Source: a bacterium (GTDB lineage Bacteria; Patescibacteriota; Minisyncoccia; Phycocordibacterales; Phycocordibacteraceae). From it: 64,000 nt of DNA. Below are positions 1-22,154 of this stretch, piece by piece. A program made the position numbers and the translations under genes. Below the pieces are notes generated by a model. It made no database searches. It saw only the letters and a program-made list of their open reading frames with translations, and had not been told where the DNA came from. Location of the stretch: contig JAJZTG010000002.1 of assembly GCA_021849125.1 (NCBI GenBank), forward strand, positions 12,573 through 76,572, read 5' to 3'. Within the stretch, counting starts at the first letter, position 1. Every line of letters starts with the position of its first letter.

Positions 1-104
1 ATGATCTTCGCATGCGGCGTGACGAAACGCTTCAAGTATGCGATGTCCTTGTAGTCGACAAACTTCTTAAGCTCGATCTCTTCTCGTTCTGATTGGTATG
101 CCAT
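1..104 (-). CDS. rpsR: 30S ribosomal protein S18, partial (truncated by window start)
   Basis: The ATG is at 102-104 on the - strand. The translation reads MAYQSEREEIELKKFVDYKDIAYLKRFVTPHAKI, which matches the S18 N-terminus. It sits immediately downstream of ssb, as in the conserved rpsF-ssb-rpsR operon. Confidence 0.75.
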   Translation of the reverse strand, partial: MAYQSEREEIELKKFVDYKDIAYLKRFVTPHAKI

Positions 105-115
105 GATCTAAATAA

Positions 116-553
116 TTAAAACGGTATGTCTTCCGGGTTGATCTCTTCGTCCGGGTACTGGATCGCTTCGGCTTCGGAAGGAGCCGGCTGTTCCTCAGAA
201 GAAGCGTTGCCTGCGCCACGACCGCCTTCTGCGCCGAACTGGAAGGTCTCGATGATGATCTCGGTGCGGTAGTTCTTCTTGCCGGTCTCCTTGTCATCCC
301 ACGAACGAGTCTGCAAACGGCCCTCCACGTAAATCGGGCGACCCTTCTTGCAATACTGCGCGATGACTTCTGCCGTGCGGCCGAACGCGACGAGGTTGTG
401 GAACTCCGTCATCTCCTGGCGCTGGCCATTCTTGTCCTTGTAGGAGCGGTTGGTGGCGAGACCGAAGTTTGCGACCTGCTGACCGGACGGGAGCGCCTTG
501 AGCTCCGGATCGCGGGTAAGGTTGCCGTAGAGGATGACTTTGTTGAGGTACAT
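116..553 (-). CDS. ssb: single-stranded DNA-binding protein
   Basis: The internal start reads MYLNKVILYGNLTRDPE and the protein has an OB fold, a Gly-rich tail and a C-terminal DIPF motif. The track ORF 116..901 is an upstream over-extension. Confidence 0.85.
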   Translation of the reverse strand: MYLNKVILYGNLTRDPELKALPSGQQVANFGLATNRSYKDKNGQRQEMTEFHNLVAFGRTAEVIAQYCKKGRPIYVEGRLQTRSWDDKETGKKNYRTEIIIETFQFGAEGGRGAGNASSEEQPAPSEAEAIQYPDEEINPEDIPF

Positions 554-560
554 GAGTCGA

Positions 561-1061
561 TTATACCGCGACGTTCTCAAGGGCTGCGTCGAGCTCATTC
601 CCGATCGCGTCCTCAGACTCCCCTGCCTCGGCAGCAGCCGTAGCAGCGGCCTTTGCGAGAAGCTCGTGGACCTCAAGAGAGTGGCGCGCAGCTTCCTTGG
701 TAGTCGTGAGGTCGATGAAACGGATGATCGCCTTGTTGGCATTTGCGGCAGCGATAATCTCTGCATGCGCTCCCGCATCCGTCTCGTAGACGACCCACGC
801 GAAGTATGCCGAGTTGAAGTCGCGGCGACCTGACACTTCCTGACGGGAGATCGTGTAGGCGAGCTGGATCTTCTCCGGCTCGACCTGAGCGACGATCTCA
901 CCCTTCTCGGCGATACCGTCGATAATCGCCTGGTACGTCTTCTTTACCTCCTCGGTCGGAAGTTCCGGGTCGAGGTGGAAACCGAGCTCATACACGCGCG
1001 GCTCCGAGGTACCGACCTCGGACTCCTCAACCATGAGGTCCATATCCTGCTTCTTAGCCAT
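561..1061 (-). CDS. rpsF: 30S ribosomal protein S6 with an Ala/Glu-rich C-terminal tail
   Basis: S6-like sequence (YELGFHLDPELP...IIRFIDLTT) that sits upstream of ssb. Confidence 0.75.
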   Translation of the reverse strand: MAKKQDMDLMVEESEVGTSEPRVYELGFHLDPELPTEEVKKTYQAIIDGIAEKGEIVAQVEPEKIQLAYTISRQEVSGRRDFNSAYFAWVVYETDAGAHAEIIAAANANKAIIRFIDLTTTKEAARHSLEVHELLAKAAATAAAEAGESEDAIGNELDAALENVAV

Positions 1062-1109
1062 AGTTCCCGCATACTACCACGGCCTTTTACCGCACACAAG
1101 CGGGGTCCT

Positions 1110-1916
1110 TCAGGGCTGTCCTAGGCCGAAAACACGCCTCGTATTCGCAAGAAGCACCTCCCGGACCGCCTCTCTGTCCTCCCCGCGCACCTCGGCGATC
1201 TGAGCGGCAACGTCTTTGACCGCGAGCGGATCATTGCGCTCCCCGCGACGGATGACCGGCGCGACGTACGGCGAATCGGTCTCCGCGAGAATATTCTCGA
1301 GCGACACGCTTTTCATGACCGCGTCATAGTCGCGGGCGAACGTGATGACCGCCGTAAAAGAGACGGTGAAGCCAAGCGCGATAAGCGCGTCGGCCTCGTC
1401 TTTGGTCCCCACGAAGAAATGTATGTCTCCTGCGTTCGGAAGCAGCGACGCTTTCTCTTCGGTAAGGAGCGCGATGAGGTCTTGATACGCATCCTGCGAA
1501 CCTTTGCTCGGACGGGAGTGGATGATGAGCGGCTTCTTGAACTCGGCAGCGAGCGCGAGGTGCTTCTTGAGAAGCTCTTTCTGATTCCTCTTCGTCACGT
1601 CGTCCACGGTCGACGGACGAAAGTAATCGAGCCCGCACTCCCCTATCGCGACCACCTTCGGGTGCGCCGCAAGCACGCGAAACGCTTCTCTATCGAACTC
1701 AACCTCAGGCTCATAGTTCGGGTGCAGCCCAACCGATGCGTAGAGGTGCTCATGCTGCTCGGCGAGCGCCAGAGCGCCCTTTGAAGACTCGAGATCGCAG
1801 CCAACCACGAGCGCGGCAACACCCTCTTCCTTCATCTTCGCGATGATGTCATCACGATCAGCGTCATATTGTCCGAACTGCAGGTGACAATGCGCATCGA
1901 TATAACGAGGGGTCAT
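1110..1916 (-). CDS. tatD: TatD-family metal-dependent hydrolase/DNase
   Basis: Carries the HCHL...GLHP...GECGLDY...ETDSPY motifs typical of TatD. It overlaps metG by 4 nt. Confidence 0.85.
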   Translation of the reverse strand: MTPRYIDAHCHLQFGQYDADRDDIIAKMKEEGVAALVVGCDLESSKGALALAEQHEHLYASVGLHPNYEPEVEFDREAFRVLAAHPKVVAIGECGLDYFRPSTVDDVTKRNQKELLKKHLALAAEFKKPLIIHSRPSKGSQDAYQDLIALLTEEKASLLPNAGDIHFFVGTKDEADALIALGFTVSFTAVITFARDYDAVMKSVSLENILAETDSPYVAPVIRRGERNDPLAVKDVAAQIAEVRGEDREAVREVLLANTRRVFGLGQP

Positions 1917-3337
1917 GGCAGACGCGGAAAGAGGTTATCGGGCTTCTTGTTTTCGCGGATAGCGGCGAGGATATTTTGGCTTGTCGAGGGCATGAAAGGC
2001 GCAAGCAGCGTCGCAATCTCATGGAGATCCCGGACGAGTGCGCGGAGCATCTCCTGCCCTTTCGCGAGATCCTCCTTCACGACCGCAAACGGCTTCTCGT
2101 TAGTAATGCGCTCGTCAGCTACCGCGATCTTTGCCCAGATGAGATCCATAACCTTATTGAATTCGAATGCTTCGAGCGCGGAAACGTATTCAGCGGGAGC
2201 AGCAACATCTTTCACCTCGACGGGTTCAGGCAGATTCGCCTCCGCAAGCTTCATGACGCGCGCGACGAGATTACCGAGACCATTGGTCAGGTGTGCGGTG
2301 TAGTGTTCACGGATCGCATCGAGCGTAAGGTCGGAGTCGTCCATCGGGCTCACATGGCGCAAAAGGATGTAGCGCACCGCATCTGTGCCGTACTCCCCGA
2401 CGAGATCAAGCGCGTTGATGACATTGCCGAGCGACTTGCTCATCTTCTGGCCACCTGAGGTGATGAAACCGTGATAGAAGACTTGGTCGGTATTCTTCAC
2501 GCCTGCAGACATGAGCATCGCTTGCCACATGAGCGACTGGAAGCGCACCTGATCCTTCCCTGCCATCTGGAGCGTCTGCCCTTCTGCCCAGTACTTCTTG
2601 AAATCACCGCCCTCGTCCGGCCAACCCAAGGTCGAGATGTAGTTGGTAAGCGCATCGAACCATACGTACATGACCTGCGATTCGTCACCTGGCACCGGGA
2701 TGCCCCACGAGAGCCGTGCGGCTTCACGTGAGATGCTGAAATCCTCGAGGCCGCCCTCTACGAAATTGATCGCCTCCTGGCGACGCCACTCCGGCATGAT
2801 GACACCCTCTCGGCTGAGATACTCGAGCAAACGGTCCTGGTAGGCAGAAAACTTGAAGAAATAGTTCTCTTCGGTCACCGTCTCAACCGGCTTTCCGGGA
2901 TGCTCAGGACACTCGCCGTTCACGAGATCCTTCTCGGTCTTGTATGACTCACAGCCGATGCAGTAGAGACCGGTATATGACTTCTTGTAGATATCGCCTG
3001 CGGCCTCGCAGCGACGCCACATCTCTTGAGCTGCCGCGACATGTTTCGCGTCAGTCGTACGGATGAATGCATGCTCGGAAAGACCGAGCGCTTTGGAGAG
3101 CTCGCTGAAGCGTTCCGCATAGTGATCAACGTATGCCTGTACCTCCTGCCCTGCTTTCTCAGCAGCCTGGAAGAGCTTCTGGCCGTGCTCGTCGGAACCG
3201 GTATTGAAAAAGACCTCTGCGCCCTGGACACGCCAAACGCGTGCAAGCACATCAGCTTGCAGGATCTCCATCGCGAACCCGACATGCGGATCCGCGTTCA
3301 CATACGGAAGCGTAGTGGTGATGTAACGTGCGCCCAT
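1913..3337 (-). CDS. metG: methionyl-tRNA synthetase (short form lacking the C-terminal tRNA-binding domain)
   Basis: N-terminal YITTTLPYVNADPHVGF and the KMSKS motif (KMSKSLGN). At 474 aa it is the short form. Confidence 0.9.
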   Translation of the reverse strand: MGARYITTTLPYVNADPHVGFAMEILQADVLARVWRVQGAEVFFNTGSDEHGQKLFQAAEKAGQEVQAYVDHYAERFSELSKALGLSEHAFIRTTDAKHVAAAQEMWRRCEAAGDIYKKSYTGLYCIGCESYKTEKDLVNGECPEHPGKPVETVTEENYFFKFSAYQDRLLEYLSREGVIMPEWRRQEAINFVEGGLEDFSISREAARLSWGIPVPGDESQVMYVWFDALTNYISTLGWPDEGGDFKKYWAEGQTLQMAGKDQVRFQSLMWQAMLMSAGVKNTDQVFYHGFITSGGQKMSKSLGNVINALDLVGEYGTDAVRYILLRHVSPMDDSDLTLDAIREHYTAHLTNGLGNLVARVMKLAEANLPEPVEVKDVAAPAEYVSALEAFEFNKVMDLIWAKIAVADERITNEKPFAVVKEDLAKGQEMLRALVRDLHEIATLLAPFMPSTSQNILAAIRENKKPDNLFPRLP

Positions 3338-3343
3338 ACTCCG

Positions 3344-4414
3344 CTACTTGTGCGCGGCAGCCATACGACGCTTACGCTTGTCGAAGTCATTGATGAGTTC
3401 GAGCAAGACAGCCGCAGCCGGCACCGAAAGAAGAACTCCGAGGAACCCGGCAATCGTGTAGCCAGCGATGAGCGAGAGGATAACGAGGAGCGGCGGAACA
3501 CCGATAACCTTCTTCACGATGAGCGGATAGATGAGGTTCGATTCGAACTGGTTCACCACGACGTAGAGACCGAGCACGATCGCAGCAAGCGCGACGCCTC
3601 CGCTTGAGAACGCGACGATGACCGCGACCGCTCCGGCAATGAGCGACCCGAAAACAGGGATGATCTCGGCAAAGGCCGTGAACACGGAAAGAAGCAGTGC
3701 ATACGGAACACCGATGATGAGAAGGCCGAGATACGTGAGGATCGCGACGATGACCGAAAGGAGGATCTGTCCCTGCATCCAGAGGCCGATCTTCTTCTGC
3801 GAACGCCGCCAGAGGTCGACAGAGTATTCCTCGTGCTTGACCGGCATCACGAGCCGGAGGAAGTCGTCGACGCCGGTCTCCTGGAGCGCGAAGTAGAACG
3901 AGAGCACGAAGACGAGGAGCAATGAGAGGATCCCTCCGAAGAACGTGACGATGATCTGTACGGCGCCAGCGGAGCCTGCGGTAAAGACCGATTGCAACGA
4001 GAGGAGCGTTTGGACGAATGACTGCAGATCGCGAGAGCTGCTCAAGAGGCTTGATGCGCTCTGGAAGCTCGGGAAAGAAGCCGATGCGTTCAAGGTCTCA
4101 AGATACCGAGGCAGTGACGAAAGAAAACCTGCCGCATCCGCGATGATCGGCGGGAAGAACAGGTACAGCATGAGAAAGATCGAACCGAACACAAGCACGT
4201 AGATGAGGATCACGGAGAAGAAGCGCGGTATGCGGTACCGGATGAAGAAGGTTACGCCTGGCTCGATAGCCGAGGCGATCACGATGGCCGTAATAACGAG
4301 AAGGACGAGGTCGCGGAGCGTCCAGAGGAGAAAAGCCCCGGCGATAAGGAGGATCGCGGAAACGATCGTGCCGGAGGTGATAGTGACCTGGACTTCCCGG
4401 TTCATAGTGGGCAT
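3344..4414 (-). CDS. AI-2E family transporter (PerM/YhhT-like membrane protein)
   Basis: Polytopic membrane protein with AI-2E-like conserved C-terminal helices. Confidence 0.65.
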   Translation of the reverse strand: MPTMNREVQVTITSGTIVSAILLIAGAFLLWTLRDLVLLVITAIVIASAIEPGVTFFIRYRIPRFFSVILIYVLVFGSIFLMLYLFFPPIIADAAGFLSSLPRYLETLNASASFPSFQSASSLLSSSRDLQSFVQTLLSLQSVFTAGSAGAVQIIVTFFGGILSLLLVFVLSFYFALQETGVDDFLRLVMPVKHEEYSVDLWRRSQKKIGLWMQGQILLSVIVAILTYLGLLIIGVPYALLLSVFTAFAEIIPVFGSLIAGAVAVIVAFSSGGVALAAIVLGLYVVVNQFESNLIYPLIVKKVIGVPPLLVILSLIAGYTIAGFLGVLLSVPAAAVLLELINDFDKRKRRMAAAHK

Positions 4415-4444
4415 GGTACCACGACCTGCGGCCTACGCCGAGAC

Positions 4445-5845
4445 CTATGCAACGGCGCTCTTGATGCGTTCAGCAACGTCTGCAACGGTGAGGCGCTCTT
4501 GTTCACCCGTATCGCGATGGCGGAGCGTGACCGTGTCGAGGAGTTCCGGGTTCTCGCCAAGCGTGTCGAAGTCGATCGTGATGCAGAACGGCGTACCGAT
4601 CTCGTCCTGGCGGCGGTAGCGCTTGCCGACGTTGCCGTTGTCGTCCCAAGCGATCGCCGGATGAACCTTCTTCAAAGCTTCACGGACTTCGCGCGCCTTT
4701 TCGACGAGCTCCGGCTTATTCTTCAAAAGCGGCGCGACCATCGCCTTCACCGGTGCGACCTTGGGTGAGAGCGCGAGATACGTGCGGGTCTCTCCTCCGA
4801 GATCGTCTTCGCGGTACGCGCTTGCGAGTACGGCGAGCACGGTACGATCGACACCCAAAGACGGCTCGATCACGTGCGGAACGAATTTCTCTTTCGTCTC
4901 TTCATCGAGGTACTCGAGCGAGACACCCGAACCCTTCTGGTGCGCCGAGAGGTCGAAGTCGGTGCGGTACGCGAGCCCCCAGAGCTCCTTGCGGCCAAAC
5001 GGGTAATCGAATTCGAAGTCGATCGTGCGCTTAGAGTAGTGTGCACGGTCACCGTCGGGGACTTCGAGCTCATGTACCATGCCGTTCGGAAGGCCGACTG
5101 CTTCCGCGAAAAGATGCATCATCTTGCGCCACTCCTCGAAGGCCTGCTGCCACTCGGAAGGCTTTACGAAATACTCGACTTCCATCTGCGAAAGCTCGCG
5201 CAAACGGAAGATGAAGTCGCGCGGCGCGATCTCGTTCCGGAAGGCCTTCCCTATCTGGGCGATACCGAACGGAAGCTTCGGGTGGATCGAGTCGATGACA
5301 TTCTTATAGTTCATGAAGATGCCGCCGGCTGTCTCAGGACGCAAGTACACCACTGCCGACTCGTCTTCCATCGCGCCTGCATGCGTCCTGAACATCATGT
5401 TGAACTGGCGTGGCTCCGCCCACTCATGTTCCCCACCAATTGGACAAGGGATCTTTTCTTTTTTAAGTAGTTCAAACTGCTTGCTGGAATCTGCTGGCAA
5501 CATAAGCGCTTTTCCAACATGCACCCTCGCAATCAAAATATCAGGCCGTTCTCTCACGTGGCATTTCTTACATTCGACAAGCGGATCGGAGAATCCAGCA
5601 ACGTGACCGGACGCTTCCCATACTTTCGGATTCATGAGGATCGTCGCATCGACGCCATACATGTCGTCACGATCGTCGCGGAACATGCGGAGCCAGAGGT
5701 TTTCGATATTTTCCTTGAGGAGGACGCCCATCGGGCCGTAGTCGAAGGTGCCGGCCAAGCCGCCATAGATCTCGGAGCCCGGGAAGACGAAGCCGCGACG
5801 CTTCGCGAGGGAGACGATCTTTTCCATGAGGTTCTGGTCGTTCAT
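4445..5845 (-). CDS. glyS: glycyl-tRNA synthetase, class II dimeric (alpha2) type
   Basis: MNDQNLMEKIVSLAKRRGFVFPGSEIYGG... is the typical alpha2 GlyRS N-terminus, with class II motifs. Confidence 0.85.
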   Translation of the reverse strand: MNDQNLMEKIVSLAKRRGFVFPGSEIYGGLAGTFDYGPMGVLLKENIENLWLRMFRDDRDDMYGVDATILMNPKVWEASGHVAGFSDPLVECKKCHVRERPDILIARVHVGKALMLPADSSKQFELLKKEKIPCPIGGEHEWAEPRQFNMMFRTHAGAMEDESAVVYLRPETAGGIFMNYKNVIDSIHPKLPFGIAQIGKAFRNEIAPRDFIFRLRELSQMEVEYFVKPSEWQQAFEEWRKMMHLFAEAVGLPNGMVHELEVPDGDRAHYSKRTIDFEFDYPFGRKELWGLAYRTDFDLSAHQKGSGVSLEYLDEETKEKFVPHVIEPSLGVDRTVLAVLASAYREDDLGGETRTYLALSPKVAPVKAMVAPLLKNKPELVEKAREVREALKKVHPAIAWDDNGNVGKRYRRQDEIGTPFCITIDFDTLGENPELLDTVTLRHRDTGEQERLTVADVAERIKSAVA

Positions 5846-5891
5846 ACGGTATAGAGTGCGCTACGCGCCGATTATATGCAAGATAACTGCC

Positions 5892-7763
5892 TTATTGCAC
5901 GATCCCGTCGGTAATCTTGTACCCGGGATCGGTCTTCGTCTCGGTCGTCACCGGATCGGTCGACGCGCTTACCTGCACCCCGGCAAAACGATCGTACCCT
6001 GAGAATGTCGAGGGGCCGGTAAGCGGCACGGCGCCTCCTTTCTGCGAAGAAGACGGGGTGATAGTCACCTGGAAGGTGCTTCGTGCGCTCGCACCCTGCG
6101 CCAAGTCGCCCGTCGTCCAGGTGAGCGTGTGGGACGTCTCGTCGTAAGAAAAAGAGCCGCTGCCGGATGTCTTGTCGACATACGTCACATAGTTTGGCAG
6201 TACGGCTTTCACCGTGCCCCCTGCGACCGCACTGCCCCGATTGGCCACGCTCCAGGCAATCGAGTAACCGGTGGTCATGCCGACCTTGGGCGGGATGGGA
6301 CCAATGCCTGACGTATGCGATGATGCTGCGCTCAGCGCGATCGCTGTCGCCACTTTTGCTGTTTTCGCGCTCGAAGCAGTGACCTGTTCCGGTACGTTCG
6401 ACTCCCCTACGCGCGTTCCGGTAGCAGTGACGGAAAAAGTCACGGTCGGCGAAGCGCCTCCCGCAGGAACGGTCGAGAACGTAAACGTACCGAGTCCTGA
6501 CTCGCCGGGTGAAAGGGTTGCGAGCGACGAATCGGTATCCTTACTGAAGACGATCGTATGGTTTACCGAGTTATAGAAGCCGTTCTGCGCCCTGATACTG
6601 CCATAGTCGATCGCTGAACCGCTGACCGCGATCGAGATCGCCGCATTCGTAACCGGCGTCGAAAGCGTATTCGTAAACGCAACAGTCACGCTTTGCGTGC
6701 TTCCTGGCGCAATGACTGCCTGATCTGATGTGTCGCCATTGATCGCAAGCTTTGTCGATATGAAAGGCGCGGCGATAGTCACGGTCGCATCCTGAGTCAT
6801 GTATTCGACCGCCAGAGTCGAGTCTTGAGACGATTTGGCGGTGCCGACCGTGAAATGGAAGACACGCTGTTCGTTGTTCTGACCGGTGAGAACGCCCGTG
6901 AGGGTTACCTGCTTGGTCGCGCCTGGAGCAAGCGTGCCGATAACGAAGGTTCCGTTCTGGAGCGGGACCGATGAGGAGGTCACCGAGAATCCGAACGGCG
7001 AGGACGGCGCGAGCACGACGTCATCGAGCGGCACCGCTGCATTCGAGCGAACCGTGAGCGTAAACGTGAGCGGGTCACCCGCTACAGTCTCCGTCAACGC
7101 GTCGACCGAAACCGAAAGCGGCGTCGAGGAGATAGCAATACCATACGAAGCCCTCTTCTCGAAGACGGCATTCGAACTCGCCGTACCGTAAGAGAAGATG
7201 ACGGGAAGCGTGACGGTCTGTCCCGCCCCGCCAAAGACAACGGCCTTGATGGAACGGGTTACGGTTGCACCGCTCGCGAGCGTGCCGAGCTGCTCGACAT
7301 ATCGGGGATAGGGCGTAAGCACATCACCGGGGCGGCGCGTCCCGTCGGGGAAATCGACTTCGATCGTCGCATTCTCAAGGGCGACCGGATTCCTGTTCGT
7401 GATGGTGAGCGAAAGCGGCACGGTATCACCGCCGGCTATCGTCGTCGGCCCCTGGATATCGATGGACACTTTATCGGTCGAGACCGAGTTGTTCCCGAAA
7501 TAGAAGAAGTAGCCTGCGGCGACAAGCGATGCGATGAAGAATATGATCGCCACGCTGAGGAATATCCCCGCGAGCCGTACGTGACGCTCACCTCGATGCA
7601 TCGTGATCGGCAACGGCTTCTCTTCCCAAGCGTGCGGGAGCGTCTGCTCTCCTGCGGCACCAAGCGGCGTACGACCATGCGTGGCAGCTCCTTTGGGGCT
7701 GTACAACGCCTCACGCGCGCGCTCAAGCGAACTGATCGAATCTTCGCCGGACCTGGATTGCAT
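5892..7763 (-). CDS. large membrane-anchored surface protein with repeated CARDB/DUF11-like beta-sandwich domains
   Basis: An N-terminal cytoplasmic segment, one TM helix (LAGIFLSVAIIFFIASLVAAGYFFYF) and a Thr/Ser/Val-rich repetitive ectodomain. The start is taken as the internal Met so that it does not overlap recO. Confidence 0.5.
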   Translation of the reverse strand: MQSRSGEDSISSLERAREALYSPKGAATHGRTPLGAAGEQTLPHAWEEKPLPITMHRGERHVRLAGIFLSVAIIFFIASLVAAGYFFYFGNNSVSTDKVSIDIQGPTTIAGGDTVPLSLTITNRNPVALENATIEVDFPDGTRRPGDVLTPYPRYVEQLGTLASGATVTRSIKAVVFGGAGQTVTLPVIFSYGTASSNAVFEKRASYGIAISSTPLSVSVDALTETVAGDPLTFTLTVRSNAAVPLDDVVLAPSSPFGFSVTSSSVPLQNGTFVIGTLAPGATKQVTLTGVLTGQNNEQRVFHFTVGTAKSSQDSTLAVEYMTQDATVTIAAPFISTKLAINGDTSDQAVIAPGSTQSVTVAFTNTLSTPVTNAAISIAVSGSAIDYGSIRAQNGFYNSVNHTIVFSKDTDSSLATLSPGESGLGTFTFSTVPAGGASPTVTFSVTATGTRVGESNVPEQVTASSAKTAKVATAIALSAASSHTSGIGPIPPKVGMTTGYSIAWSVANRGSAVAGGTVKAVLPNYVTYVDKTSGSGSFSYDETSHTLTWTTGDLAQGASARSTFQVTITPSSSQKGGAVPLTGPSTFSGYDRFAGVQVSASTDPVTTETKTDPGYKITDGIVQ

Positions 7764-7782
7764 GAAAACAGTATAACGCGTG

Positions 7783-8352
7783 TCAGAGCCCGGACGCAGT
7801 GATGTCGTGGTTGATGCGCGCGATGTACTGCGTACGTCTTGCACGCACTGCGCTCAGCGCTTCTGGCGCAAATGCCACTGCGCCTTCAGGCAGCTCGCCA
7901 TCATCGAGACCAAGCTCGGCAAGGATCTGCAGGACCGCGATGATTTCTGCCGCTTCGCGGTCCTCGGCAGACAGCGTGGTGAGCGTATCGAAAAATGATC
8001 TGAGCGTGTGAAATAGCGCGAGATCATGCGCTTCGCCAGCGACGAGACGCAAGAGAAGACCGGAAACGCGCGCCGCGGAGCGACGCGCGTCCGGATCCGT
8101 GAGCCGCCGAGCCCAATTCTCTTCGAGAACTGCACCAGTCAAGCGCCACCCCTCTTTCCCGCGTACGAGCATGAGATTGCTCTCGGCAAAAGTCACGAGC
8201 GCAGGAGCAAGCTTCGCTCCAGGTTTACGCAAACTCTGGGCGCGCACGCGCATGAGCCCGAGATCTTCGGTAAGAAGCGTCACGAGAGCGGTCGCTTCGC
8301 CTGAGGGCACTCGGGCGAGCACGATCGCGCGTGTCGTGTACTTATGCCGCAT
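7783..8352 (-). CDS. recO: DNA repair protein RecO
   Basis: MRHKYTTRAIVLARVPSGEATALVTLLTEDLGLMRV resembles the RecO N-terminal OB domain. ATG at 8350-8352. Confidence 0.65.
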   Translation of the reverse strand: MRHKYTTRAIVLARVPSGEATALVTLLTEDLGLMRVRAQSLRKPGAKLAPALVTFAESNLMLVRGKEGWRLTGAVLEENWARRLTDPDARRSAARVSGLLLRLVAGEAHDLALFHTLRSFFDTLTTLSAEDREAAEIIAVLQILAELGLDDGELPEGAVAFAPEALSAVRARRTQYIARINHDITASGL

Positions 8353-8438
8353 CCCAGTCAGAGAAACTGCGCGATGCGCATGTCCCGGCATTCGAACGAT
8401 ATCGTTTTTCGTTTTTCATAACATTCGAGAGGCACCCT

Positions 8439-11400
8439 CTAACGGGACTCGTCGCGGAGAATATCGAAACGCTCTTCCCCGGTCGAGAGCGTAGCGACAT
8501 ACTTCCCTTCCGGACGCACCACGACGCGCACGACATCGCTCGGAGCAAGGCCTTCTGCCTTGCGTGCCTGCGCAAGAGCGCTCGCGCGCTCGCGCTCGTC
8601 ACCTTCCTTGATAAGTTCCGGCGTGAGCATCGTATCGAGCGCGAGTTCACCTCCGACCTTGATCTCTTTCACGTTAAGCTCGTCCGCAAGAATCGCGGAA
8701 AGTTCGCTCGGGAGCGCCTCGCTTATCGTGAGCGACGCAAGCGGCTGGCGCACCTTGATATTCGCCTTCTGGCGGAGTTGGAGCGCAGTCGAGGCGAGGT
8801 CACGGACCCGACCCATCTGGGCGATAAGCGGCGCAGACGTATCCGGCATGAAGAAGAAGCGTCGTGGCGCACGCGGCCACTCGGTGAGATGCACGCTTTC
8901 CGGCTCATCCTCTTCACGCACGGCGCGGAAGACCTCTTCAGCGAGGAATGGCATCGACGGCGCCATCACCTTCGCGCTCTCGCGAAGCACGTAGCGCAGC
9001 GTCCTAAGTGCATCCTTCTTGTCACTCCCCTCTTCCTTGAAGCGGTCACGTGAGCGGCGCAGATACCAGACCGAGAGGTCATCGATAAAGGACGTAAGCG
9101 GGCGCACGGCGCGGTCGAGCTCGTAACGCTCGTACCCTTCGGTCGATTCACGGATAAGCTCATCAAGACGCGCGAAGATCCAGCGATCGAGGATGTGCTT
9201 GCTCGTGCGCGCCGCGGGCGTGCCGTCTGCATAGAGCTGGTAGAAAGAAAGCACGTTGCCGAAACGGCCGACATTCTTCTTCGCGACTTCGTCGACCCCG
9301 CCTTCGACGAAAGCGAGATTCTCTGCAGCAACGACCGGCGAGGAAAGGAGGTAGAAACGAAGCGCATCCGCACCGTACTTATCGACAATGAGCATCGGGT
9401 CGGGATAATTCTTCTTGCTCTTCGAGAGTTTCTTGCCGTCTTCGGGTGATACCACGATGCCGTTCACGATGACGTTCTCAAAGGCGTTCTTGTTGAAGAG
9501 CGCGCCGCCGAGCACGTGGAGGTAGTAGAACCACGCGCGCGTCTGATCGACTCCTTCCGCGATGAACTGCGCCGGGAAATTCTTTTCGAAACGACTCTTG
9601 TTCTCGACCGGATAGTGCATCTCTGCATACGGCATGCTCCCGGAATCGAACCACGTATCGAGCACGTCCGGAACGCGTATCATCGGTTCGCCCTTCTCGT
9701 TCACAAGCGCGACTTCGTCGATATACGGCAGATGGAGATCGAGCTCGTAGTCAGGGTTGTGCGGGAGCGGGATGAAGTCGAGTTCGCGCGCATGACCGGT
9801 CTGGAAATCCGAGATGCGGACGACGTCGGCCATCGCTTCTGCGTTGCCGCCCATGGCGATCGTCGTGAGCGACTCAAGGCCGATGCCGTGGGTCACGATG
9901 AGAACCTTCTTGCCGGAAAGCGTCTTCTCGAGTTCGTAGATGAAATTGCCGAAACGACGCTTCGCGTCCACATGGCTTTCACCTCCTGGGAACTTGTCGG
10001 CGAAGCTCGTCAGGTGCGTATCGCGATAGGTGATGAAATCCGCGTATGGCTTGCCAGAAAGCTCGCCCATGTCGAGCTCGCGCAAGCGCTCGTCGAAGAC
10101 GATGGCGGAACGTTCGATACCGAGCGCGTCGGCCATGAGCTCAGCGGTCTCCCGGGTGCGCACGAAAGGAGACGCGTAGATGGCTTCGATACCCCTTCCT
10201 TTCAACGTCTCGGCCGTTGCGGCAACTTCAGCTTTCCCTTTTTCCGTAAGGTGATTCCCGCCATTCACCTCAGCGCTCACGAAATTCTCGGCATTATTCT
10301 TCGCTTCGCCGTGTCGCATCATGAAGTAGGCATTCCCCGACTTCTTCGCATGGCGCTTGAGCTCCTCGACCGAGCCGATGACCGTAATGTTCCCTGTAGC
10401 GTCCTTCCAGAGCGGTATGACGCTCGCCCAGAAACGCTGACGCGAGATGGACCAGTCACGCGCGCCTTCGAGCCACTTGCCGAAGCGTCCTTCCTTGATG
10501 TGCGCGGGCGACCAGTTGATGCGCTTGGCATTCTCCAAGAGCTCTCCCTTGATCTTGGTGACCGCGACGAACCACGAGGTGGTCGCGTAGTTCAAAAGCG
10601 GCGTACCGCAACGCCAGCAGTGCGGGTAGCTGTGCATGAGATTCTCTTTCGCGAAGAAAGTCCCGTGTTCCTGAAGGTAACGGATGACCTCGATATCCGT
10701 CCCGAGACGGACCTTGTCATCCTCAGACTTCGGCTTCACTTCCCTGCCGGCAAAATCCGTCACCTCCGGGCGCATCGTGCCGTCGTAAGCAATGTGTTGC
10801 ACGAACGGCAGATTCTCTTTCTTGCCGAGCGCCATGTCGTCTTCGCCGAACGCCGGCGCGATATGCACGATGCCGGTGCCGGTGCCGGTCGTGACGAAAT
10901 CAGCGGCGTATACTTTCCACCCGTTCTCGTGATTCTTGAGAGCTGTGTTTTTCTGGTAGTACTCAAACGGTGCGGTGTACGAGAGGCCTACAAGGTCGGA
11001 GCCTTTGAATTCCTTTCCGGAATCTCCTTCGCGCTTCACTCGGATGTATTGTGCGCCATCCTGTTCTTCGACGACATATGTAACCTCCTTCCCCACCGCG
11101 AGTGCGACGTTGCCCGGCAAGGTCCACGGGGTCGTGGTCCAGGCGAGAAGGTACACGTCGCCGCTGAGGCCGAGCATCTGCGGGTTCGTCACCTTGAACT
11201 TCGCGGTAACCGCGATATCCTTCACATCCTCGTACCCTTCCGCGACTTCCTGCTGCGAAAGCGTCGTCTCGCAGCGCGGGCAGACATGCATCGAGCGGTA
11301 GTCTTCGTACACGAGACCCTTGTCGTACACCTGTTTGAAAACCCACCACACGCTCTCCATGAACGAGGCATCCATCGTGGTGTACGGATGCTCCATGTCG

Positions 11401-11819
11401 ACGAAGCGTCCGATACGCGGGATCACCTTCTTCCATTCGTCGGAGCAGGCGAAGACCTGCGCGCGACATGCCTCGTTGAATTTCTCGACGCCGTATTCCT
11501 TGATGTCCTTCTTGTGCGTGAAGCCGAGCTCTTTCTCGACGATGTTCTCGACCGGAAGTCCGTGCGTGTCCCAGCCCCAGACGCGCGGGACATGGTAGCC
11601 CCGCATCGTCTTGTAGCGTGGCACGGCGTCCTTCATCACGCTCGCGACGATGTGCCCGTAATGCGGCAAGCCGGTGGCAAAGGGCGGCCCGTCGTAGAAG
11701 ACGTACTCGCCCTTGGGCGACTTCTTCTCGAGCGACTTCTCGAAAATCTTGTTCTCCTGCCAGAAGGCAAGCACTTCTTCCTCGCGCTTGGCAGCTTCTG
11801 ATTTCCCTGCTTCGGCCAT
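8439..11819 (-). CDS. ileS: isoleucyl-tRNA synthetase (type 2) carrying an inserted histidine-phosphatase-like domain
   Basis: HIGH motif (PHYGHIVAS), CP1 editing motif (TGTGIVHIAPAFGEDD), WSISRQRFW and a KMSKS variant (KLSKSKKN). At 1126 aa it is ~190 aa longer than typical IleS. Confidence 0.9.
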   Translation of the reverse strand: MAEAGKSEAAKREEEVLAFWQENKIFEKSLEKKSPKGEYVFYDGPPFATGLPHYGHIVASVMKDAVPRYKTMRGYHVPRVWGWDTHGLPVENIVEKELGFTHKKDIKEYGVEKFNEACRAQVFACSDEWKKVIPRIGRFVDMEHPYTTMDASFMESVWWVFKQVYDKGLVYEDYRSMHVCPRCETTLSQQEVAEGYEDVKDIAVTAKFKVTNPQMLGLSGDVYLLAWTTTPWTLPGNVALAVGKEVTYVVEEQDGAQYIRVKREGDSGKEFKGSDLVGLSYTAPFEYYQKNTALKNHENGWKVYAADFVTTGTGTGIVHIAPAFGEDDMALGKKENLPFVQHIAYDGTMRPEVTDFAGREVKPKSEDDKVRLGTDIEVIRYLQEHGTFFAKENLMHSYPHCWRCGTPLLNYATTSWFVAVTKIKGELLENAKRINWSPAHIKEGRFGKWLEGARDWSISRQRFWASVIPLWKDATGNITVIGSVEELKRHAKKSGNAYFMMRHGEAKNNAENFVSAEVNGGNHLTEKGKAEVAATAETLKGRGIEAIYASPFVRTRETAELMADALGIERSAIVFDERLRELDMGELSGKPYADFITYRDTHLTSFADKFPGGESHVDAKRRFGNFIYELEKTLSGKKVLIVTHGIGLESLTTIAMGGNAEAMADVVRISDFQTGHARELDFIPLPHNPDYELDLHLPYIDEVALVNEKGEPMIRVPDVLDTWFDSGSMPYAEMHYPVENKSRFEKNFPAQFIAEGVDQTRAWFYYLHVLGGALFNKNAFENVIVNGIVVSPEDGKKLSKSKKNYPDPMLIVDKYGADALRFYLLSSPVVAAENLAFVEGGVDEVAKKNVGRFGNVLSFYQLYADGTPAARTSKHILDRWIFARLDELIRESTEGYERYELDRAVRPLTSFIDDLSVWYLRRSRDRFKEEGSDKKDALRTLRYVLRESAKVMAPSMPFLAEEVFRAVREEDEPESVHLTEWPRAPRRFFFMPDTSAPLIAQMGRVRDLASTALQLRQKANIKVRQPLASLTISEALPSELSAILADELNVKEIKVGGELALDTMLTPELIKEGDERERASALAQARKAEGLAPSDVVRVVVRPEGKYVATLSTGEERFDILRDESR
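9746..10330 (-). other. in-frame histidine phosphatase (PGAM/His_Phos_1-like) domain inserted within IleS (approx. aa 497-692)
   Basis: RHGEAKNN...SPFVRTRETAE...RLRELDMGELSGK...GGESHVDAKRR...VLIVTHGIGLESL. Both catalytic His and both Arg of the RHG...H phosphatase fold are present. It is flanked by the IleS segments SVEELKRH and DLHLPYIDEV. Confidence 0.6.
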
Positions 11820-12149: not shown

Positions 12150-13832
12150 CTAAAGACGCTCAGGCGTGTGGATACCGAGAAGCGTAAGGCCGTTCTGCAT
12201 CGTGTGCACGAATGCGCGCGCGATAAGGAGCTTGTGCGCCTCGTGTTCCCCGCCGATGATCCGCTCTTTCGCATAGAAAGCATTCCACTCGCCCGCGAGC
12301 TCCGTGAGGTACGTCACGAGCAGGTTCGGCGAAAGCTCGCGCTCCGCACGTGCGGCGACTTCCGGGAAATGCATGATGAGCCGTTCGATGAAATATGGCT
12401 CGGCAGGTGCATCTGCTTTGGGAGCATTCTCCCCCGCCTGCGCGAGCACCGACTTCGCGCGCACCAGAGCATACTGGAGATACGGACCCGAATCGCCTTC
12501 GAGCGAAAGCGACTTCTCCGGATCGAAGATGATGTCCGATCCCGGCGACTGACGTAACACCATGTACTTCACCGCACCCACCGCGACCTGCTCAGCCACA
12601 AGCGGATCGGGACTGCGTTTCATCGCGTGCTCGGTCACATCCTTCAGGAGCCCGGCGGCCGTGATGACGTTCCCTTCGCGCGAGCTCATCTTGCCGGAAG
12701 TGAGCCGGAGAAAACCGTGCGGCACGTGTTTCGTCTTCTTAGCGAGGTTCGGCGCGAGCTCTGCGAGCGCCGCAAGCACCACCTTGAAGTGTCCCGTTTG
12801 TTCATTCGACGTGACGATGATGCTCTCATCCGAGGGAAAACGTTCCTCCTTGAGAAACGCGAGGCCGATGTCTTTCGTCTCGTAGGTCGGCGTACCACGA
12901 CTCGTAACGAACACGAGCGTATGAAGCCCGACTTTCTCTCCCGGATAGATGACTGCCCCATCGCTTTCCTCAAAGATGCCCTTGGCAAGACCGTCCTTCA
13001 CCACGCGGAGTCCTGGCTCGACCGTATCGCTGTCGAAGAAGTCGTAGTCGAGATGCGTACCAAAGATAGCAAAGAGACGCTTGAACTCGAGCATAGAAAT
13101 CTCGCGGCCTTTTCCCCAAAGCGAGAGGAGTTCACGGTCACTTCCACTCATTTCCACCTCGTGACGTCGGGCGACGAGATCGTAAAGACGGACATTGAGC
13201 GCGTCGATTTCTTTCTTTGCCGAGTCATCAGTCTCGTATGCGGCAGAGGCGCGTGCATACGCCGCACCGATTTCCTGTGCATCGCTGATTTCAGCAACAC
13301 CCTCCTTCTTGAGCCCCCAGAGCGCTTTTGCGACATGCGGACCGACATCACCGCCAAACGAGCTTCCGAAGACCGTCGCGCCACGTGAGCGCTTGAGACG
13401 CGTGAGCGCTTCACCTATGACCGCGCTCATGAGATGCCCGATATGCATCTCCTTGAACGGATTCGGGTTCGCGTAGTCGATAATGGCTCGCTTCCCCACT
13501 TCTGTAGCATCAGTCCCCCACGTCGCACCTTGGGCATCCGCCTCGGCAAGCGCAAGCGATACGACGCCACGCGCGAGCGTGATGTTTACGAAACCGGGCC
13601 CTGCGACTTCGATACTCGTGACCTTGTCACCGAGCGTTTCTTTGAGCGAACGAGCGAGCTCGTCCGCGAGCTCGCGCGGATTTTGACCGAGCTGTTTTGC
13701 AGATACAAGGGCAGCATTGGTCGCGTAGTCGCCATGTGCAGCATCCACCGGACGCTCGATAGTGAACGCCACTCCCTCCGCTCCGAGCTTGTGAAGGGCG
13801 CTTGCGACCGCCTCTCGTATCGTGCTTTCCAT
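12150..13832 (-). CDS. argS: arginyl-tRNA synthetase
   Basis: N-terminal MESTIREAVASAL...GPGFVNI and a class I HIGH-like HIGH(L) region. The start is taken at the internal Met. Confidence 0.85.
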   Translation of the reverse strand: MESTIREAVASALHKLGAEGVAFTIERPVDAAHGDYATNAALVSAKQLGQNPRELADELARSLKETLGDKVTSIEVAGPGFVNITLARGVVSLALAEADAQGATWGTDATEVGKRAIIDYANPNPFKEMHIGHLMSAVIGEALTRLKRSRGATVFGSSFGGDVGPHVAKALWGLKKEGVAEISDAQEIGAAYARASAAYETDDSAKKEIDALNVRLYDLVARRHEVEMSGSDRELLSLWGKGREISMLEFKRLFAIFGTHLDYDFFDSDTVEPGLRVVKDGLAKGIFEESDGAVIYPGEKVGLHTLVFVTSRGTPTYETKDIGLAFLKEERFPSDESIIVTSNEQTGHFKVVLAALAELAPNLAKKTKHVPHGFLRLTSGKMSSREGNVITAAGLLKDVTEHAMKRSPDPLVAEQVAVGAVKYMVLRQSPGSDIIFDPEKSLSLEGDSGPYLQYALVRAKSVLAQAGENAPKADAPAEPYFIERLIMHFPEVAARAERELSPNLLVTYLTELAGEWNAFYAKERIIGGEHEAHKLLIARAFVHTMQNGLTLLGIHTPERL

Positions 13833-13979
13833 ATCGCGAGTGTAACAGACCCCTCGTATAAAAAAAGACGGCCTCCGCAAGGATGCCGTCGAAGCCAAAG
13901 AACCGAGATGGAAATCCTTGGCGGTGGGAGATCAAACTGATTTAACCATAACACGATACTAAACTAAGTGCAACTCACG

Positions 13980-20639: not shown

Positions 20640-20690
20640 CGTACAAAAATATACTCGCAAAGCGCTATCGCTCTTTTCTCCTTATTTTTG

Positions 20691-20763
20691 GGCGACTACA
20701 GGGAATCGAACCCTGATTGCGGGTACCACAAACCCGAGTGTTAACCGTTACACCATAGTCGCC
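20691..20763 (-). tRNA. tRNA-His (anticodon GTG) with encoded G-1
   Basis: Cloverleaf folds with anticodon loop TTGTGGT. The extra 5' G pairs with the discriminator C. The T-loop is TTCGATT. Confidence 0.85.
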
Positions 20764-20851
20764 ATGCTGGCTTGCCTGTTTTTTATACCATATCGCCTGT
20801 TTTTTTCTAATTTCAGGTCGCCAGAGGCGTGCGTGGTACCATGAGGCGCAT

Positions 20852-22092: not shown

Positions 22093-22125
22093 ATACGGCC
22101 AGTATACCGCGCGATTTCGGGAGGG

Positions 22126-22154
22126 CTTGACAGGTTTATTAGTTAGTGCTATTC
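22126..22154 (+). promoter_or_regulatory. sigma70-like promoter TTGACA-17-TATTCT
   Basis: TTGACA at 22126-22131 and TATTCT at 22149-22154, upstream of the 37-aa ORF. Confidence 0.45.

What the first reader, a model, noticed from the sequence alone, without database searches (positions are those of the whole stretch)
9746..10330. Histidine-phosphatase (PGAM-fold) domain inserted in-frame into the catalytic core of isoleucyl-tRNA synthetase
The IleS ORF (8439..11819, 1126 aa) is continuous and carries all the synthetase landmarks (HIGH, CP1 editing TGTGIVHIAPAFGEDD, WSISRQRFW, KLSKS). Between the conserved linker ...GSVEELKRH and DLHLPYIDEV, where canonical IleS has only about 10-15 residues, there are ~190 aa with the full signature of the histidine phosphatase superfamily: RHGE at the start, SPFVRTRETAE, RLRELDMGELSGK, GGESHVDAKRR and VLIVTHGIG. 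Both catalytic His and both phosphate-binding Arg are present, so the domain looks catalytically competent rather than a decayed remnant. I am not aware of an aaRS with an embedded phosphatase domain in this loop. It could hydrolyse a nucleotide (Ap4A, (p)ppGpp or 2',3'-cyclic/3'-phospho-tRNA ends), or couple aminoacylation to a signalling or repair activity. The loop sits on the surface near the KMSKS region, so the insertion should be sterically tolerated.
Basis: partly seen in the sequence, partly recalled or inferred. Interest (0 to 1): 0.8.

Follow-up and report, generated by a model that had tools for sequence, protein, structure and literature searches.

The report
Phosphatase domain nested inside isoleucyl-tRNA synthetase
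In this small-genome (Patescibacteria) bacterium, the enzyme that loads isoleucine onto tRNA has a complete, apparently active phosphatase built into one of its surface subdomains; the arrangement is real, shared by many related genomes and apparently undescribed, and in sister lineages the same phosphatase is a separate gene directly upstream of ileS.

Summary
ORF 8439-11819 (-) is a type-2 isoleucyl-tRNA synthetase (IleRS) with about 200 extra residues (aa 490-693). These form a complete branch-1 histidine phosphatase (Pfam His_Phos_1, E=2.4e-31; AlphaFold pLDDT 94; PGAM fold). The insert lies in the CP3 subdomain, exactly between T. thermophilus IleRS residues 482 and 488.

It is not an assembly artefact. 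45 GTDB species and more than 180 distinct metagenomic sequences carry it, with the catalytic Arg/His/Arg/Glu/His set essentially invariant.

New findings:
- The gene is the syntenic housekeeping ileS (argS-ileS-recO). Its nearest orthologs lack the insert.
- The closest free-standing relatives (about 190 aa) are encoded in a tight argS-phosphatase-ileS operon, with gaps of -10 to +17 bp.
- His_Phos_1 domains also occur at two other IleRS sites, in tandem copies, and at two sites in valyl-tRNA synthetase (ValRS).

Best reading: an active accessory phosphomonoesterase that partners IleRS, here fused by nesting near the synthetic site. The substrate is unknown; a terminal phosphate on a nucleotide or tRNA end is my favoured guess, but it is untested.

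No paper describing this was found. I rate it a new variant of a known kind, interest about 0.65.

The parts
8439..11819 (-). ileS: type-2 isoleucyl-tRNA synthetase, 1126 aa, with the nested phosphatase
   Evidence: ORF. TIGR00392 ileS scores 834.9 bits against a cutoff of 621.4; best solved-structure matches are T. thermophilus IleRS, P. megaterium IleRS2 and eukaryotic IleRS; an identical protein, P0021, is in NCBI/ENA.
11652..11663 (-). HIGH signature (HYGH, aa 53-56)
   Evidence: Invariant in 46 homologs.
11115..11141 (-). Thr-rich editing peptide WTTTPWTLP (aa 227-235) in CP1
   Evidence: Invariant.
10836..10883 (-). CP1 editing-site motif TGTGIVHIAPAFGEDD (aa 313-328)
10425..10463 (-). 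CP2-3 linker ARDWSISRQRFWA (aa 453-465). It is homologous to the yeast IleRS segment that lines the tRNA CCA / reveromycin pocket.
   Evidence: Domain definition from PMC7955072.
10353..10424 (-). N-terminal part of the CP3 subdomain (aa 466-489); the Zn-knuckle cysteines are lost here
9741..10352 (-). Segment absent from insert-less orthologs (aa 490-693): linker, histidine phosphatase domain, and return linker PLPHNPDYEL
   Evidence: alignment with P0071, P0064, P0118, P0092. (gap against 1ILE residues 482/488).
9828..10325 (-). His_Phos_1 (PF00300) match, aa 499-664
   Evidence: E=2.4e-31; model pLDDT 94.3, pTM 0.91. Foldseek matches to PspA, PhoE and GpgP, TM 0.73-0.79.
10308..10316 (-). 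RHG motif: R502 and the nucleophile H503
   Evidence: R and H each present in 182 of 183 distinct IleRS-embedded domains.
10158..10160 (-). R554, second phosphate-binding arginine
   Evidence: 183/183.
10077..10079 (-). E581, general acid; it aligns with the Glu of PhoE's conserved LRE motif
   Evidence: alignment; 177 Glu plus 6 Asp of 183.
9984..10070 (-). Cap (substrate-specificity) region, aa 584-612; variable, and deleted in 11 of 43 species
   Evidence: Helix 592-602 in the model.
9888..9890 (-). H644, second catalytic histidine
   Evidence: 183/183.
9669..9740 (-). C-terminal part of CP3 (aa 694-717, DLHLPYIDEV...MIRVP)
9639..9659 (-). DTWFDSG strand of the second Rossmann half (aa 721-727). 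The Asp and Trp contact the CCA-mimicking inhibitor in yeast IleRS.
   Evidence: (PMC7955072). Invariant.
9417..9431 (-). KMSKS signature (KLSKS, aa 797-801)
8739..9188 (-). Anticodon-binding domain (Anticodon_1, aa 878-1027)
   Evidence: E=9.4e-30.
12150..13898 (-). argS (arginyl-tRNA synthetase), upstream neighbour in the conserved argS-(phosphatase)-ileS-recO cluster. The start codon is uncertain: the public record aa.
7783..8391 (-). recO, downstream neighbour in the conserved cluster

Best explanation
SHOWN. The gene is the organism's syntenic housekeeping type-2 IleRS. All synthetic, editing and anticodon-binding landmarks are intact. Its CP3 subdomain hosts a complete, independently folding branch-1 histidine phosphatase. 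The phosphatase keeps the full catalytic set: R502, the nucleophile H503, N509, R554, the acid E581, and H644.

The same phosphatase family exists in three states in sister lineages. It is a free-standing gene of about 190 aa wedged between argS and ileS with overlapping or near-touching stop and start codons. It is nested in CP3, as here. Or it is absent. Other His_Phos_1 lineages have been captured independently at two further IleRS sites, as tandem copies, and at two sites in ValRS.

INFERRED. The domain works as a phosphomonoesterase. H503 attacks the phosphate to form a phospho-histidine intermediate, E581 protonates the leaving group, and water releases phosphate. It is an accessory partner of IleRS, not part of the aminoacylation chemistry. 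Nesting replaces operon coupling with a physical tether next to the mouth of the synthetic site.

The substrate is not identified. My favoured candidate (about 25%) is a terminal phosphomonoester on a nucleotide or on the tRNA 3' end that would otherwise block charging. A small metabolite is about equally likely.
For: Identity of the parts: IleRS; phosphatase fold.

Catalytic residues are invariant in 43 species and in 183 distinct embedded domains, even though the insert diverges about twice as fast as the core.

Orthology and synteny: the gene order argS-ileS-recO-surface protein is the same with and without the insert.

Operon partner: in 22 metagenomic loci the standalone relative lies directly upstream of an insert-less ileS. 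The gap is -10 to +17 bp in 19 of them, and argS is usually just upstream.

Same family: standalone and embedded sequences interleave in a neighbour-joining (NJ) tree, and the three states cluster by IleRS clade.

Recurrent capture: IleRS sites B and C (P0189, P0263), tandem copies (P0191, P0193, P0227, P0254), ValRS (P0146, P0244, P0291, P0340; 37 of 119 close ValRS). Almost every multi-domain host among the 150 best representatives is IleRS or ValRS; the only other multi-domain hit, P0280, carries two phosphatase domains and no host.

Position: CP3 follows the CP2-3 linker that lines the CCA pocket, and sites A and B flank the WFDSG strand of that pocket.

Cap-less forms keep the catalytic core, which suggests that substrate recognition does not depend on the cap.
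Against: The nearest orthologs (68-77% identical in the core) have neither the insert nor a nearby standalone copy, so the activity is dispensable or can be replaced.

The embedded domain is mildly acidic (net charge about -3.5), the same as free relatives. There is no sign of an RNA-binding surface.

Tandem arrays of 2-4 intact copies fit a set of small-molecule phosphatases better than a single tRNA-directed activity.

The same hosts also carry GNAT, P-loop kinase-like and even IS200-like domains. Synthetases are known to be permissive insertion hosts (PMC13114784), so structural tolerance alone could explain the recurrence.

No standalone copy sits next to valS in the one insert-less ValRS locus examined.

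The relative orientation of phosphatase and synthetic site could not be modelled.

The trees are simple NJ trees without support values.
Confidence: 0.55

Rival explanations
1. Passenger fusion. The domain is an ordinary small-molecule phosphatase (sugar-phosphate, nucleotide or phospho-amino-acid salvage). It has no mechanistic link to aminoacylation. It ended up next to ileS, and then inside it, because operon neighbours fuse easily and the CP3 loop tolerates insertions. The benefit would be only co-expression with an essential gene in a streamlined genome.
For: Closest solved relatives are small-molecule phosphatases: PhoE, PspA, GpgP and the riboflavin-pathway HFP. The cap region is present and variable, as in metabolite phosphatases. 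Arrays of 2-4 intact copies exist. The same hosts accept unrelated domains such as GNAT, a P-loop kinase-like domain and IS200 Y1, and synthetases are known insertion hosts. The domain is acidic. It has been lost in the nearest relatives.
Against: Capture is repeated, from different His_Phos_1 lineages, at four or more sites, and only in IleRS and ValRS among the hosts seen. Operon coupling to ileS is tight and long conserved across two large IleRS clades. A quarter of species have deleted the cap yet keep the catalytic core, which is odd for an enzyme tuned to one metabolite.
Confidence: 0.3
2. Catalytically silent module. The domain has become a structural spacer, an oligomerisation surface or a ligand sensor. 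It binds a phosphorylated metabolite and tunes IleRS allosterically without turning the metabolite over.
For: Its position in CP3, next to the CCA-pocket linker, could transmit conformational change. The insert evolves twice as fast as the core.
Against: The nucleophile His, both Arg, the second His and the acid Glu are kept in about 180 of 183 sequences. A binder would not need E581 or H644. The fold is predicted with very high confidence and an intact pocket.
Confidence: 0.07
3. It is the cell's cofactor-dependent phosphoglycerate mutase (a glycolytic enzyme) fused to IleRS.
For: It belongs to the same superfamily. The NCBIfam archaeal dPGM model is among the better matches (76.8 bits).
Against: The score is far below that model's cutoff of 225, and every other dPGM model is also far below cutoff. 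At about 190 aa the domain lacks the longer dPGM C-terminal region. Its best structural neighbours are phosphatases, not mutases. In the ValRS lineage, two cofactor-independent PGM genes sit beside the fused valS.
Confidence: 0.03
4. Artefact or selfish element: an assembly chimera, or an intein-like element that is removed from the mature protein.
For: None found. The window comes from a metagenome-assembled genome.
Against: The same in-frame architecture appears in 39 full-length ORFs from 45 independent species genomes with GC content of 0.26-0.63 and in dozens of metagenomic contigs. There is no composition break. Pfam finds no Hint/intein domain. The residue after the insert is P, E, D or N, not the Cys/Ser/Thr that splicing requires.
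Confidence: 0.01

Closest known systems
Type-2 (eukaryote-like) IleRS, e.g. Thermus thermophilus IleRS (PDB 1ILE/1JZQ) and Priestia megaterium IleRS2 (8C8U)
   Same: Full-length homology: E=1.7e-200 and 5.2e-196. It has HIGH and KMSKS signatures, the CP1 editing domain, CP2, CP3, the anticodon domain and a type-2 C-terminal region.
   Different: About 200 residues are inserted between 1ILE residues 482 and 488 in CP3. The window protein has also lost the CP3 zinc-knuckle cysteines.
PhoE/YhfR broad-specificity phosphatase of Geobacillus stearothermophilus (PDB 1H2E/1EBB) and PspA phosphoserine phosphatase of Hydrogenobacter (4IJ5)
   Same: Best sequence matches (E=2.5e-11) and best fold matches (TM 0.73-0.79). 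Similar size (PhoE and PspA are about 200-210 aa against about 190 aa here), the same catalytic residues and the same cap architecture.
   Different: Only 21-28% identical. Those enzymes are free-standing; this one is nested in a synthetase or encoded in the argS-ileS operon. Its substrate is unknown.
Bifunctional RNase H / acid phosphatase (Rv2228c type; NCBIfam NF005567)
   Same: Top NCBIfam match for the insert (80.7 bits). It is another case of a His_Phos_1 domain joined to an enzyme that handles nucleic acid.
   Different: The score is far below the family cutoff of 326. That fusion is end-to-end, not nested, and the partner is RNase H rather than a synthetase.
IleRS with an N-acetyltransferase domain (NCBIfam NF040702, ileS_w_GNAT)
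   Same: A curated example of an IleRS that carries an extra enzyme domain. A GNAT-bearing relative, P0252, also carries the phosphatase.
   Different: The window protein has no GNAT domain (329.6 bits against a cutoff of 1999), and the added activity is different.
SixA phosphohistidine phosphatase, a minimal member of the superfamily
   Same: The cap-deleted variants found in 11 of 43 species resemble its stripped-down, open-site architecture.
   Different: The window domain keeps its cap and scores 45.7 bits against the SixA cutoff of 74.5. No protein substrate is known.
CP1 editing domain of class Ia synthetases, the classic functional domain nested in the Rossmann fold
   Same: An autonomous hydrolytic domain inserted into the connective polypeptide of the same enzyme, acting in cis beside the synthetic site.
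   Different: CP1 is universal and hydrolyses mischarged aminoacyl esters. This insert is lineage-specific and dispensable, and it has phosphomonoesterase chemistry.

Membership tests
Isoleucyl-tRNA synthetase (class Ia) | Matches the curated equivalog model above its cutoff | tested here: met
   TIGR00392 scores 834.9 bits against a cutoff of 621.4. ValRS, LeuRS and MetRS models fall below their cutoffs.
Isoleucyl-tRNA synthetase (class Ia) | HIGH and KMSKS signatures, and the WFDSG strand of the Rossmann fold | tested here: met
   HYGH 53-56, KLSKS 797-801, DTWFDSG 721-727. Conserved in 46 homologs.
Isoleucyl-tRNA synthetase (class Ia) | CP1 editing domain with the Thr-rich peptide and the H-x-A-P-x-x-G-x-x-D motif | tested here: met
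   WTTTPWTLP 227-235 and TGTGIVHIAPAFGEDD 313-328. Matches isolated editing-domain structures 1WK8 and 1UE0.
Isoleucyl-tRNA synthetase (class Ia) | It is the housekeeping copy: a single ileS at the orthologous locus | tested here: inconclusive
   The argS-ileS-recO synteny is the same as in insert-less orthologs, and the 64-kb window has only one ileS. The whole genome could not be scanned.
Isoleucyl-tRNA synthetase (class Ia) | Charges tRNA-Ile with isoleucine | not testable with these tools
   Requires biochemistry.
Type-2 IleRS (IleRS2 / eukaryote-like) | Closer to T. thermophilus, IleRS2 and eukaryotic enzymes than to IleRS1, with a type-2 C-terminal region (DUF5915) instead of the zinc-binding domain | tested here: met
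   E about 1e-200 to 1ILE and 8C8U, against 2.5e-87 to S. aureus IleRS1 1FFY. DUF5915 is weak in the window protein (22 bits, below the cutoff of 27) but is recorded for many close homologs.
Histidine phosphatase superfamily, branch 1 (PF00300) | Pfam model matched above the gathering score | tested here: met
   109.4 bits against 21.7, E=2.4e-31, aa 499-664.
Histidine phosphatase superfamily, branch 1 (PF00300) | Catalytic core: RHG nucleophile His, two Arg, a second His, and an acidic proton donor | tested here: met
   R502, H503, R554, H644, E581 and N509 are present and aligned with PhoE. They are invariant across homologs.
Histidine phosphatase superfamily, branch 1 (PF00300) | PGAM-type alpha/beta fold | tested here: met
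   Model pLDDT 94.3, pTM 0.91. 288 PDB matches with E<=0.001; the 50 best shown are all from this superfamily, TM up to 0.79.
Histidine phosphatase superfamily, branch 1 (PF00300) | Hydrolyses a phosphomonoester through a phospho-histidine intermediate | not testable with these tools
   Requires an enzyme assay.
Cofactor-dependent phosphoglycerate mutase (dPGM) | Reaches a curated dPGM model cutoff | tested here: not met
   Best is dPGM_arch, 76.8 bits against 225. GpmB scores 71.5 against 261. pgm_1 scores 34.6 against 81.7.
Alpha-ribazole phosphatase CobC | Reaches the TIGR03162 cutoff | tested here: not met
   78.4 bits against 162.9.
Phosphoserine phosphatase PspA | Reaches the NF045917 cutoff | tested here: not met
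   53.8 bits against 350, although PspA is the best fold match.
SixA phosphohistidine phosphatase | Reaches the TIGR00249 cutoff; cap-less architecture of about 160 aa | tested here: not met
   45.7 bits against 74.5, and only the first 80 residues align. The window domain has a cap.
Intein / protein-splicing element | Hint domain, and Cys/Ser/Thr at the downstream splice junction | tested here: not met
   No Hint-family Pfam hit. The junction residues are not nucleophiles.

The most novel reading that the evidence does not exclude
The phosphatases nested in, or operon-coupled to, IleRS and ValRS are built-in tRNA-end healing modules. They would remove a 3'/2'-terminal phosphate or pyrophosphate from the CCA end, left by ribonucleases or added by tRNA-targeting toxins, right at the enzyme that needs a free terminal ribose. 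This would be a new editing-like quality-control activity of class Ia synthetases and a new substrate class for the histidine phosphatase superfamily. The P-loop kinase-like domain seen beside the phosphatase in P0269 would then be the matching 5'-kinase.
Probability: 0.15. Interest if true: 0.85.

Novelty: new variant of a known kind. Interest (0 to 1): 0.65.

Why it matters
Aminoacyl-tRNA synthetases are among the best-studied enzymes. Apart from the universal editing domain, catalytic domains nested in the Rossmann-fold insertions are rare. I found no description of this one, including in a 2026 survey of 96,219 IleRS sequences.

Here a second, apparently active enzyme is repeatedly built into IleRS and ValRS in one large bacterial radiation. 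The unfused form is a tightly coupled operon partner of ileS. Together these make an evolutionary series: operon neighbour, then nested domain, then loss. The series offers a clean system for studying how nested domain architectures arise.

It also points to an unknown phosphate-removing step linked to charging of branched-chain-amino-acid tRNAs in organisms with minimal genomes.

There is a practical consequence for annotation. NCBI labels several of these proteins only as "class I tRNA ligase family protein" or "hypothetical protein". Essential IleRS and ValRS genes may therefore be under-called in Patescibacteria genomes.

Tried and rejected
- Full-length AlphaFold model, to see where the phosphatase active site points.
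- Net charge of the embedded domain as a proxy for RNA binding. It does not differ from free relatives.
- Search for a decayed phosphatase gene in the argS-ileS gap of the window and of insert-less orthologs. None found.
- Search for another His_Phos_1 gene in the 64-kb window. None found.
- Attempt to type the co-inserted P-loop domain (P0269) and GNAT domain (P0252), in the hope of finding a polynucleotide kinase or a tRNA acetyltransferase. Only generic weak matches came back: APS, shikimate and Pnkp1 kinases at E about 0.02-0.08, and ElaA-like GNAT. Inconclusive.
- Looked for a standalone phosphatase next to valS in an insert-less ValRS locus. Absent.
- The first metagenome scan, with a 23-sequence alignment, failed for lack of conserved stretches. 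A 6-sequence alignment worked.
- The AFDB fold library was unavailable.
- Seven literature searches found no description.
- dN/dS was not attempted, because the closest available pairs are too divergent (65% amino-acid identity or less in the insert).
Full report
**1. Checking the observation**

The window holds a continuous 1126-codon ORF on the minus strand, 8439-11819.

Pfam splits the class I synthetase domain around a His_Phos_1 match at aa 499-664 (E=2.4e-31, 109 bits against a gathering score of 21.7). It also finds the anticodon-binding domain. The NCBIfam IleRS equivalog model is passed (834.9 bits against 621.4).

Compared with solved structures, T. thermophilus IleRS aligns up to its residue 482 and resumes at residue 488. 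The roughly 200 intervening residues of the window protein have no counterpart there. Aligned with its nearest insert-less orthologs, the extra segment is aa 490-693, window 9741-10352.

GC content is flat across the region.

**2. It is real and conserved**

A scan of one genome per GTDB species found 45 loci. Those whose record titles carry a lineage name are labelled Patescibacteria/CPR: Paceibacterota, Kaiser-, Adler-, Nomura-, Zambryski- and Taylorbacteria and others. Of these, 39 give an uninterrupted reading frame of at least 1000 codons through the insert, in genomes with GC content from 0.26 to 0.63. Five are cut by contig ends and one is interrupted.

An identical protein (P0021) is in NCBI/ENA. 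The window matches GCA_027321305.1, contig DAHVJR010000004.1.

An exhaustive HMMER search of 1.8 billion cluster representatives with the insert alone gave 34 hits at E<=1e-30 and 887 at E<=1e-10. An assembly chimera is excluded.

**3. The insert is an intact histidine phosphatase**

The closest solved sequences are PhoE/YhfR (E=2.5e-11) and the PspA phosphoserine phosphatase.

With an alignment, AlphaFold models the insert alone at pLDDT 94.3 and pTM 0.91. In the otherwise poor full-length model the insert is still at pLDDT 91-95, which fits an autonomous fold.

Foldseek returns only members of the PGAM/histidine phosphatase superfamily among the 50 best matches shown: PspA, the riboflavin-pathway HFP, GpgP, PhoE, TIGAR, the FBPase-2 domain and dPGMs. 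TM scores are 0.73-0.79 and identity is 21-28%.

The catalytic residues are R502, H503, N509, R554, E581 and H644, assigned by alignment with PhoE. They are invariant in 43 species. In 183 distinct IleRS-embedded domains the counts are R502 182, H503 182, R554 183, H644 183, and E581 177 Glu plus 6 Asp. This holds although the insert diverges about twice as fast as the synthetase core.

No curated subfamily cutoff is reached for dPGM, CobC, PspA, SixA or RNase H/acid phosphatase. The domain is therefore a generic member of the superfamily with unknown specificity.

In 11 of 43 species the cap region (aa ~584-612, including the helix at 592-602) is deleted, while the catalytic core is kept.

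**4. Where it sits in the synthetase**

Published domain boundaries for yeast and Candida IleRS place the ARDWxxSRxRxWG segment as the CP2-3 linker. This linker lines the pocket for the tRNA CCA end and its mimic reveromycin A. CP3 is the element between that linker and the WFDSG strand (PMC7955072, PMC7191050).

The insert therefore lies inside CP3, after its first helix. It is in a connective-polypeptide subdomain at the rim of the synthetic site, not in the core itself.

The synthetic and editing motifs are all conserved in insert-bearing homologs.

**5. Genomic context and the key new result**

The window gene sits in the order argS-ileS-recO-DUF11 surface protein. Insert-less IleRS that are 68-77% identical in the core occupy exactly the same locus. 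This is therefore the orthologous housekeeping gene.

Among the 120 closest homologs, 49 carry the insert and 71 carry a 7-residue loop instead. These map with at least 3 changes on an NJ core tree. The insert-less loci show no phosphatase remnant or nearby copy.

I then asked where the closest free-standing relatives are encoded. These are about 190 aa and 35-48% identical, and they share the N-x-Y-F-x-x-RHG start. A metagenome scan returned 80 loci.

In some of them the match is again nested in a 1100-1250-aa IleRS. In the others it is a separate 187-228-aa gene. That gene lies on the same strand between an ArgRS gene and an insert-less IleRS gene of 923-993 aa.

I scored 22 such argS-phosphatase-ileS loci. 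In 19 of the 22 loci where the distance could be measured, the phosphatase-ileS gap is -10 to +17 bp, and the argS-phosphatase gap is similarly tight in most.

On an IleRS core tree the three states (embedded, adjacent, none) cluster by clade, with at least 8 changes among 96 sequences. On a phosphatase tree the adjacent and embedded forms interleave and separate from outgroup phosphatases.

The nested domain and the operon partner are thus one family associated with ileS.

**6. Other architectures**

- Some IleRS carry His_Phos_1 domains at other sites: after the WFESGSMPYA segment (site B), and between the KMSKS/stem-contact region and the anticodon domain (site C). Examples are P0189 and P0263.
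- Others have two copies in CP3: P0191, P0193, P0227, P0254.
- P0269 adds a P-loop kinase-like domain.
- P0252 adds a GNAT domain and an IS200-like domain inside CP1.
- ValRS also carries the domain. P0146 has four intact-looking copies. 37 of the 119 closest homologs of P0244 have one, under Magasanikbacteria and Moranbacteria labels. The ValRS domain sits either in the CP3 hairpin or after the WFSSG strand.
- These domains branch apart from the main IleRS clade, which implies independent captures.
- Insert-bearing and insert-less valS share synteny.
- Among the 150 best representatives, the hosts identified were IleRS or ValRS; one fragment could not be typed, and the only other multi-domain hit (P0280) carries two phosphatase domains and no host.

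**7. Interpretation**

Shown: an intact phosphatase, a housekeeping IleRS, nesting in CP3, an operon-partner relationship, recurrent capture by IleRS and ValRS, and dispensability in the nearest relatives.

Inferred: the domain is an active phosphomonoesterase that uses a phospho-His503 intermediate with E581 as the acid. It serves as an accessory partner of the synthetase, and nesting tethers it beside the synthetic-site entrance.

The substrate is unknown.

Points favouring a nucleotide or tRNA-end substrate:
- Host specificity for IleRS and ValRS.
- Insertion sites that flank the CCA-pocket strand.
- Cap-less variants that keep the catalytic core.

Points favouring an unrelated small-molecule phosphatase that is merely co-expressed:
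- The acidic surface of the domain.
- Multi-copy arrays.
- Generic similarity to metabolite phosphatases.
- The evident permissiveness of these hosts to other domains.
- Loss in close relatives.

My estimates: about 0.55 for a functionally coupled accessory phosphatase, of which about 0.15-0.25 is specifically a tRNA 3'-end activity; about 0.3 for a passenger fusion; and small probabilities for a silent module, a dPGM or an artefact.

**8. Novelty**

Automated pipelines already record the domain. JGI even names one ValRS "valyl-tRNA synthetase/broad specificity phosphatase PhoE". NCBI falls back on "class I tRNA ligase family protein".

Seven full-text searches found no description. Two recent large surveys, of IleRS domain architecture and of domain insertions, do not mention it either.

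It is a new variant of known kinds, a known synthetase with a known phosphatase fold. It has an unusual nested architecture and an informative evolutionary series. Its biochemical role is open but directly testable.

Noticed in passing
window 20852-21562 (+): A 236-aa ORF matches Pfam AOX (alternative oxidase; 34.3 bits against a gathering score of 22.7). It sits next to a cobalamin adenosyltransferase gene (21559-22290, -). An oxidase-like di-iron protein is unexpected in a Patescibacteria-type genome.
   Followed up: no
window 10353-10424 and 9669-9740 (IleRS aa 466-489 and 694-717): The insert-bearing window IleRS has lost all four CP3 zinc-knuckle cysteines that its insert-less orthologs keep (WKCESCK...VPCACGGE against WKDATGN...LVNEKGE). 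Other insert-bearing lineages (L006, L007) keep them.
   Followed up: partly
P0252 (metagenomic IleRS, 1066 aa): An IS200-like Y1 transposase domain (Pfam Y1_Tnp, E=7e-12) lies inside the CP1 editing domain of an IleRS. The same protein also has the CP3 phosphatase and a GNAT domain after the WFESG strand.
   Followed up: partly
P0269 (metagenomic IleRS, 1395 aa): A P-loop kinase-like domain (AAA_18/AAA_33) is inserted after the WFDSG-equivalent segment (...SMPYAS), in addition to the CP3 phosphatase. Its type could not be resolved: there are only weak matches to APS, shikimate and Pnkp1 kinases.
   Followed up: partly
P0146, P0244, P0291, P0340; loci L132, L133: Valyl-tRNA synthetases labelled Magasanikbacteria/Moranbacteria carry the same kind of phosphatase at two sites. 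One fragment has four tandem copies. The valS locus is flanked by two cofactor-independent phosphoglycerate mutase genes plus tyrS and argS.
   Followed up: partly
L047 7528-7996 (insert-less ortholog locus): Two small ORFs (82 and 78 aa) fill the argS-ileS gap where other lineages have the phosphatase gene. They are not phosphatase remnants, and by their sequences they might be a toxin-antitoxin pair.
   Followed up: no
window 1-8400 and 12150-13900: Synthetase genes are clustered: MetRS-like (1913-3337), a class II synthetase (4445-5845), IleRS and ArgRS lie within 14 kb. All except IleRS are of ordinary or minimal length.
   Followed up: no
window 20690-32659: There are nine tRNA genes (His, Leu x2, Val, Arg x3, Ser, Lys) and no tRNA-Ile near ileS. 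No other Rfam family reaches its threshold in the window.
   Followed up: yes
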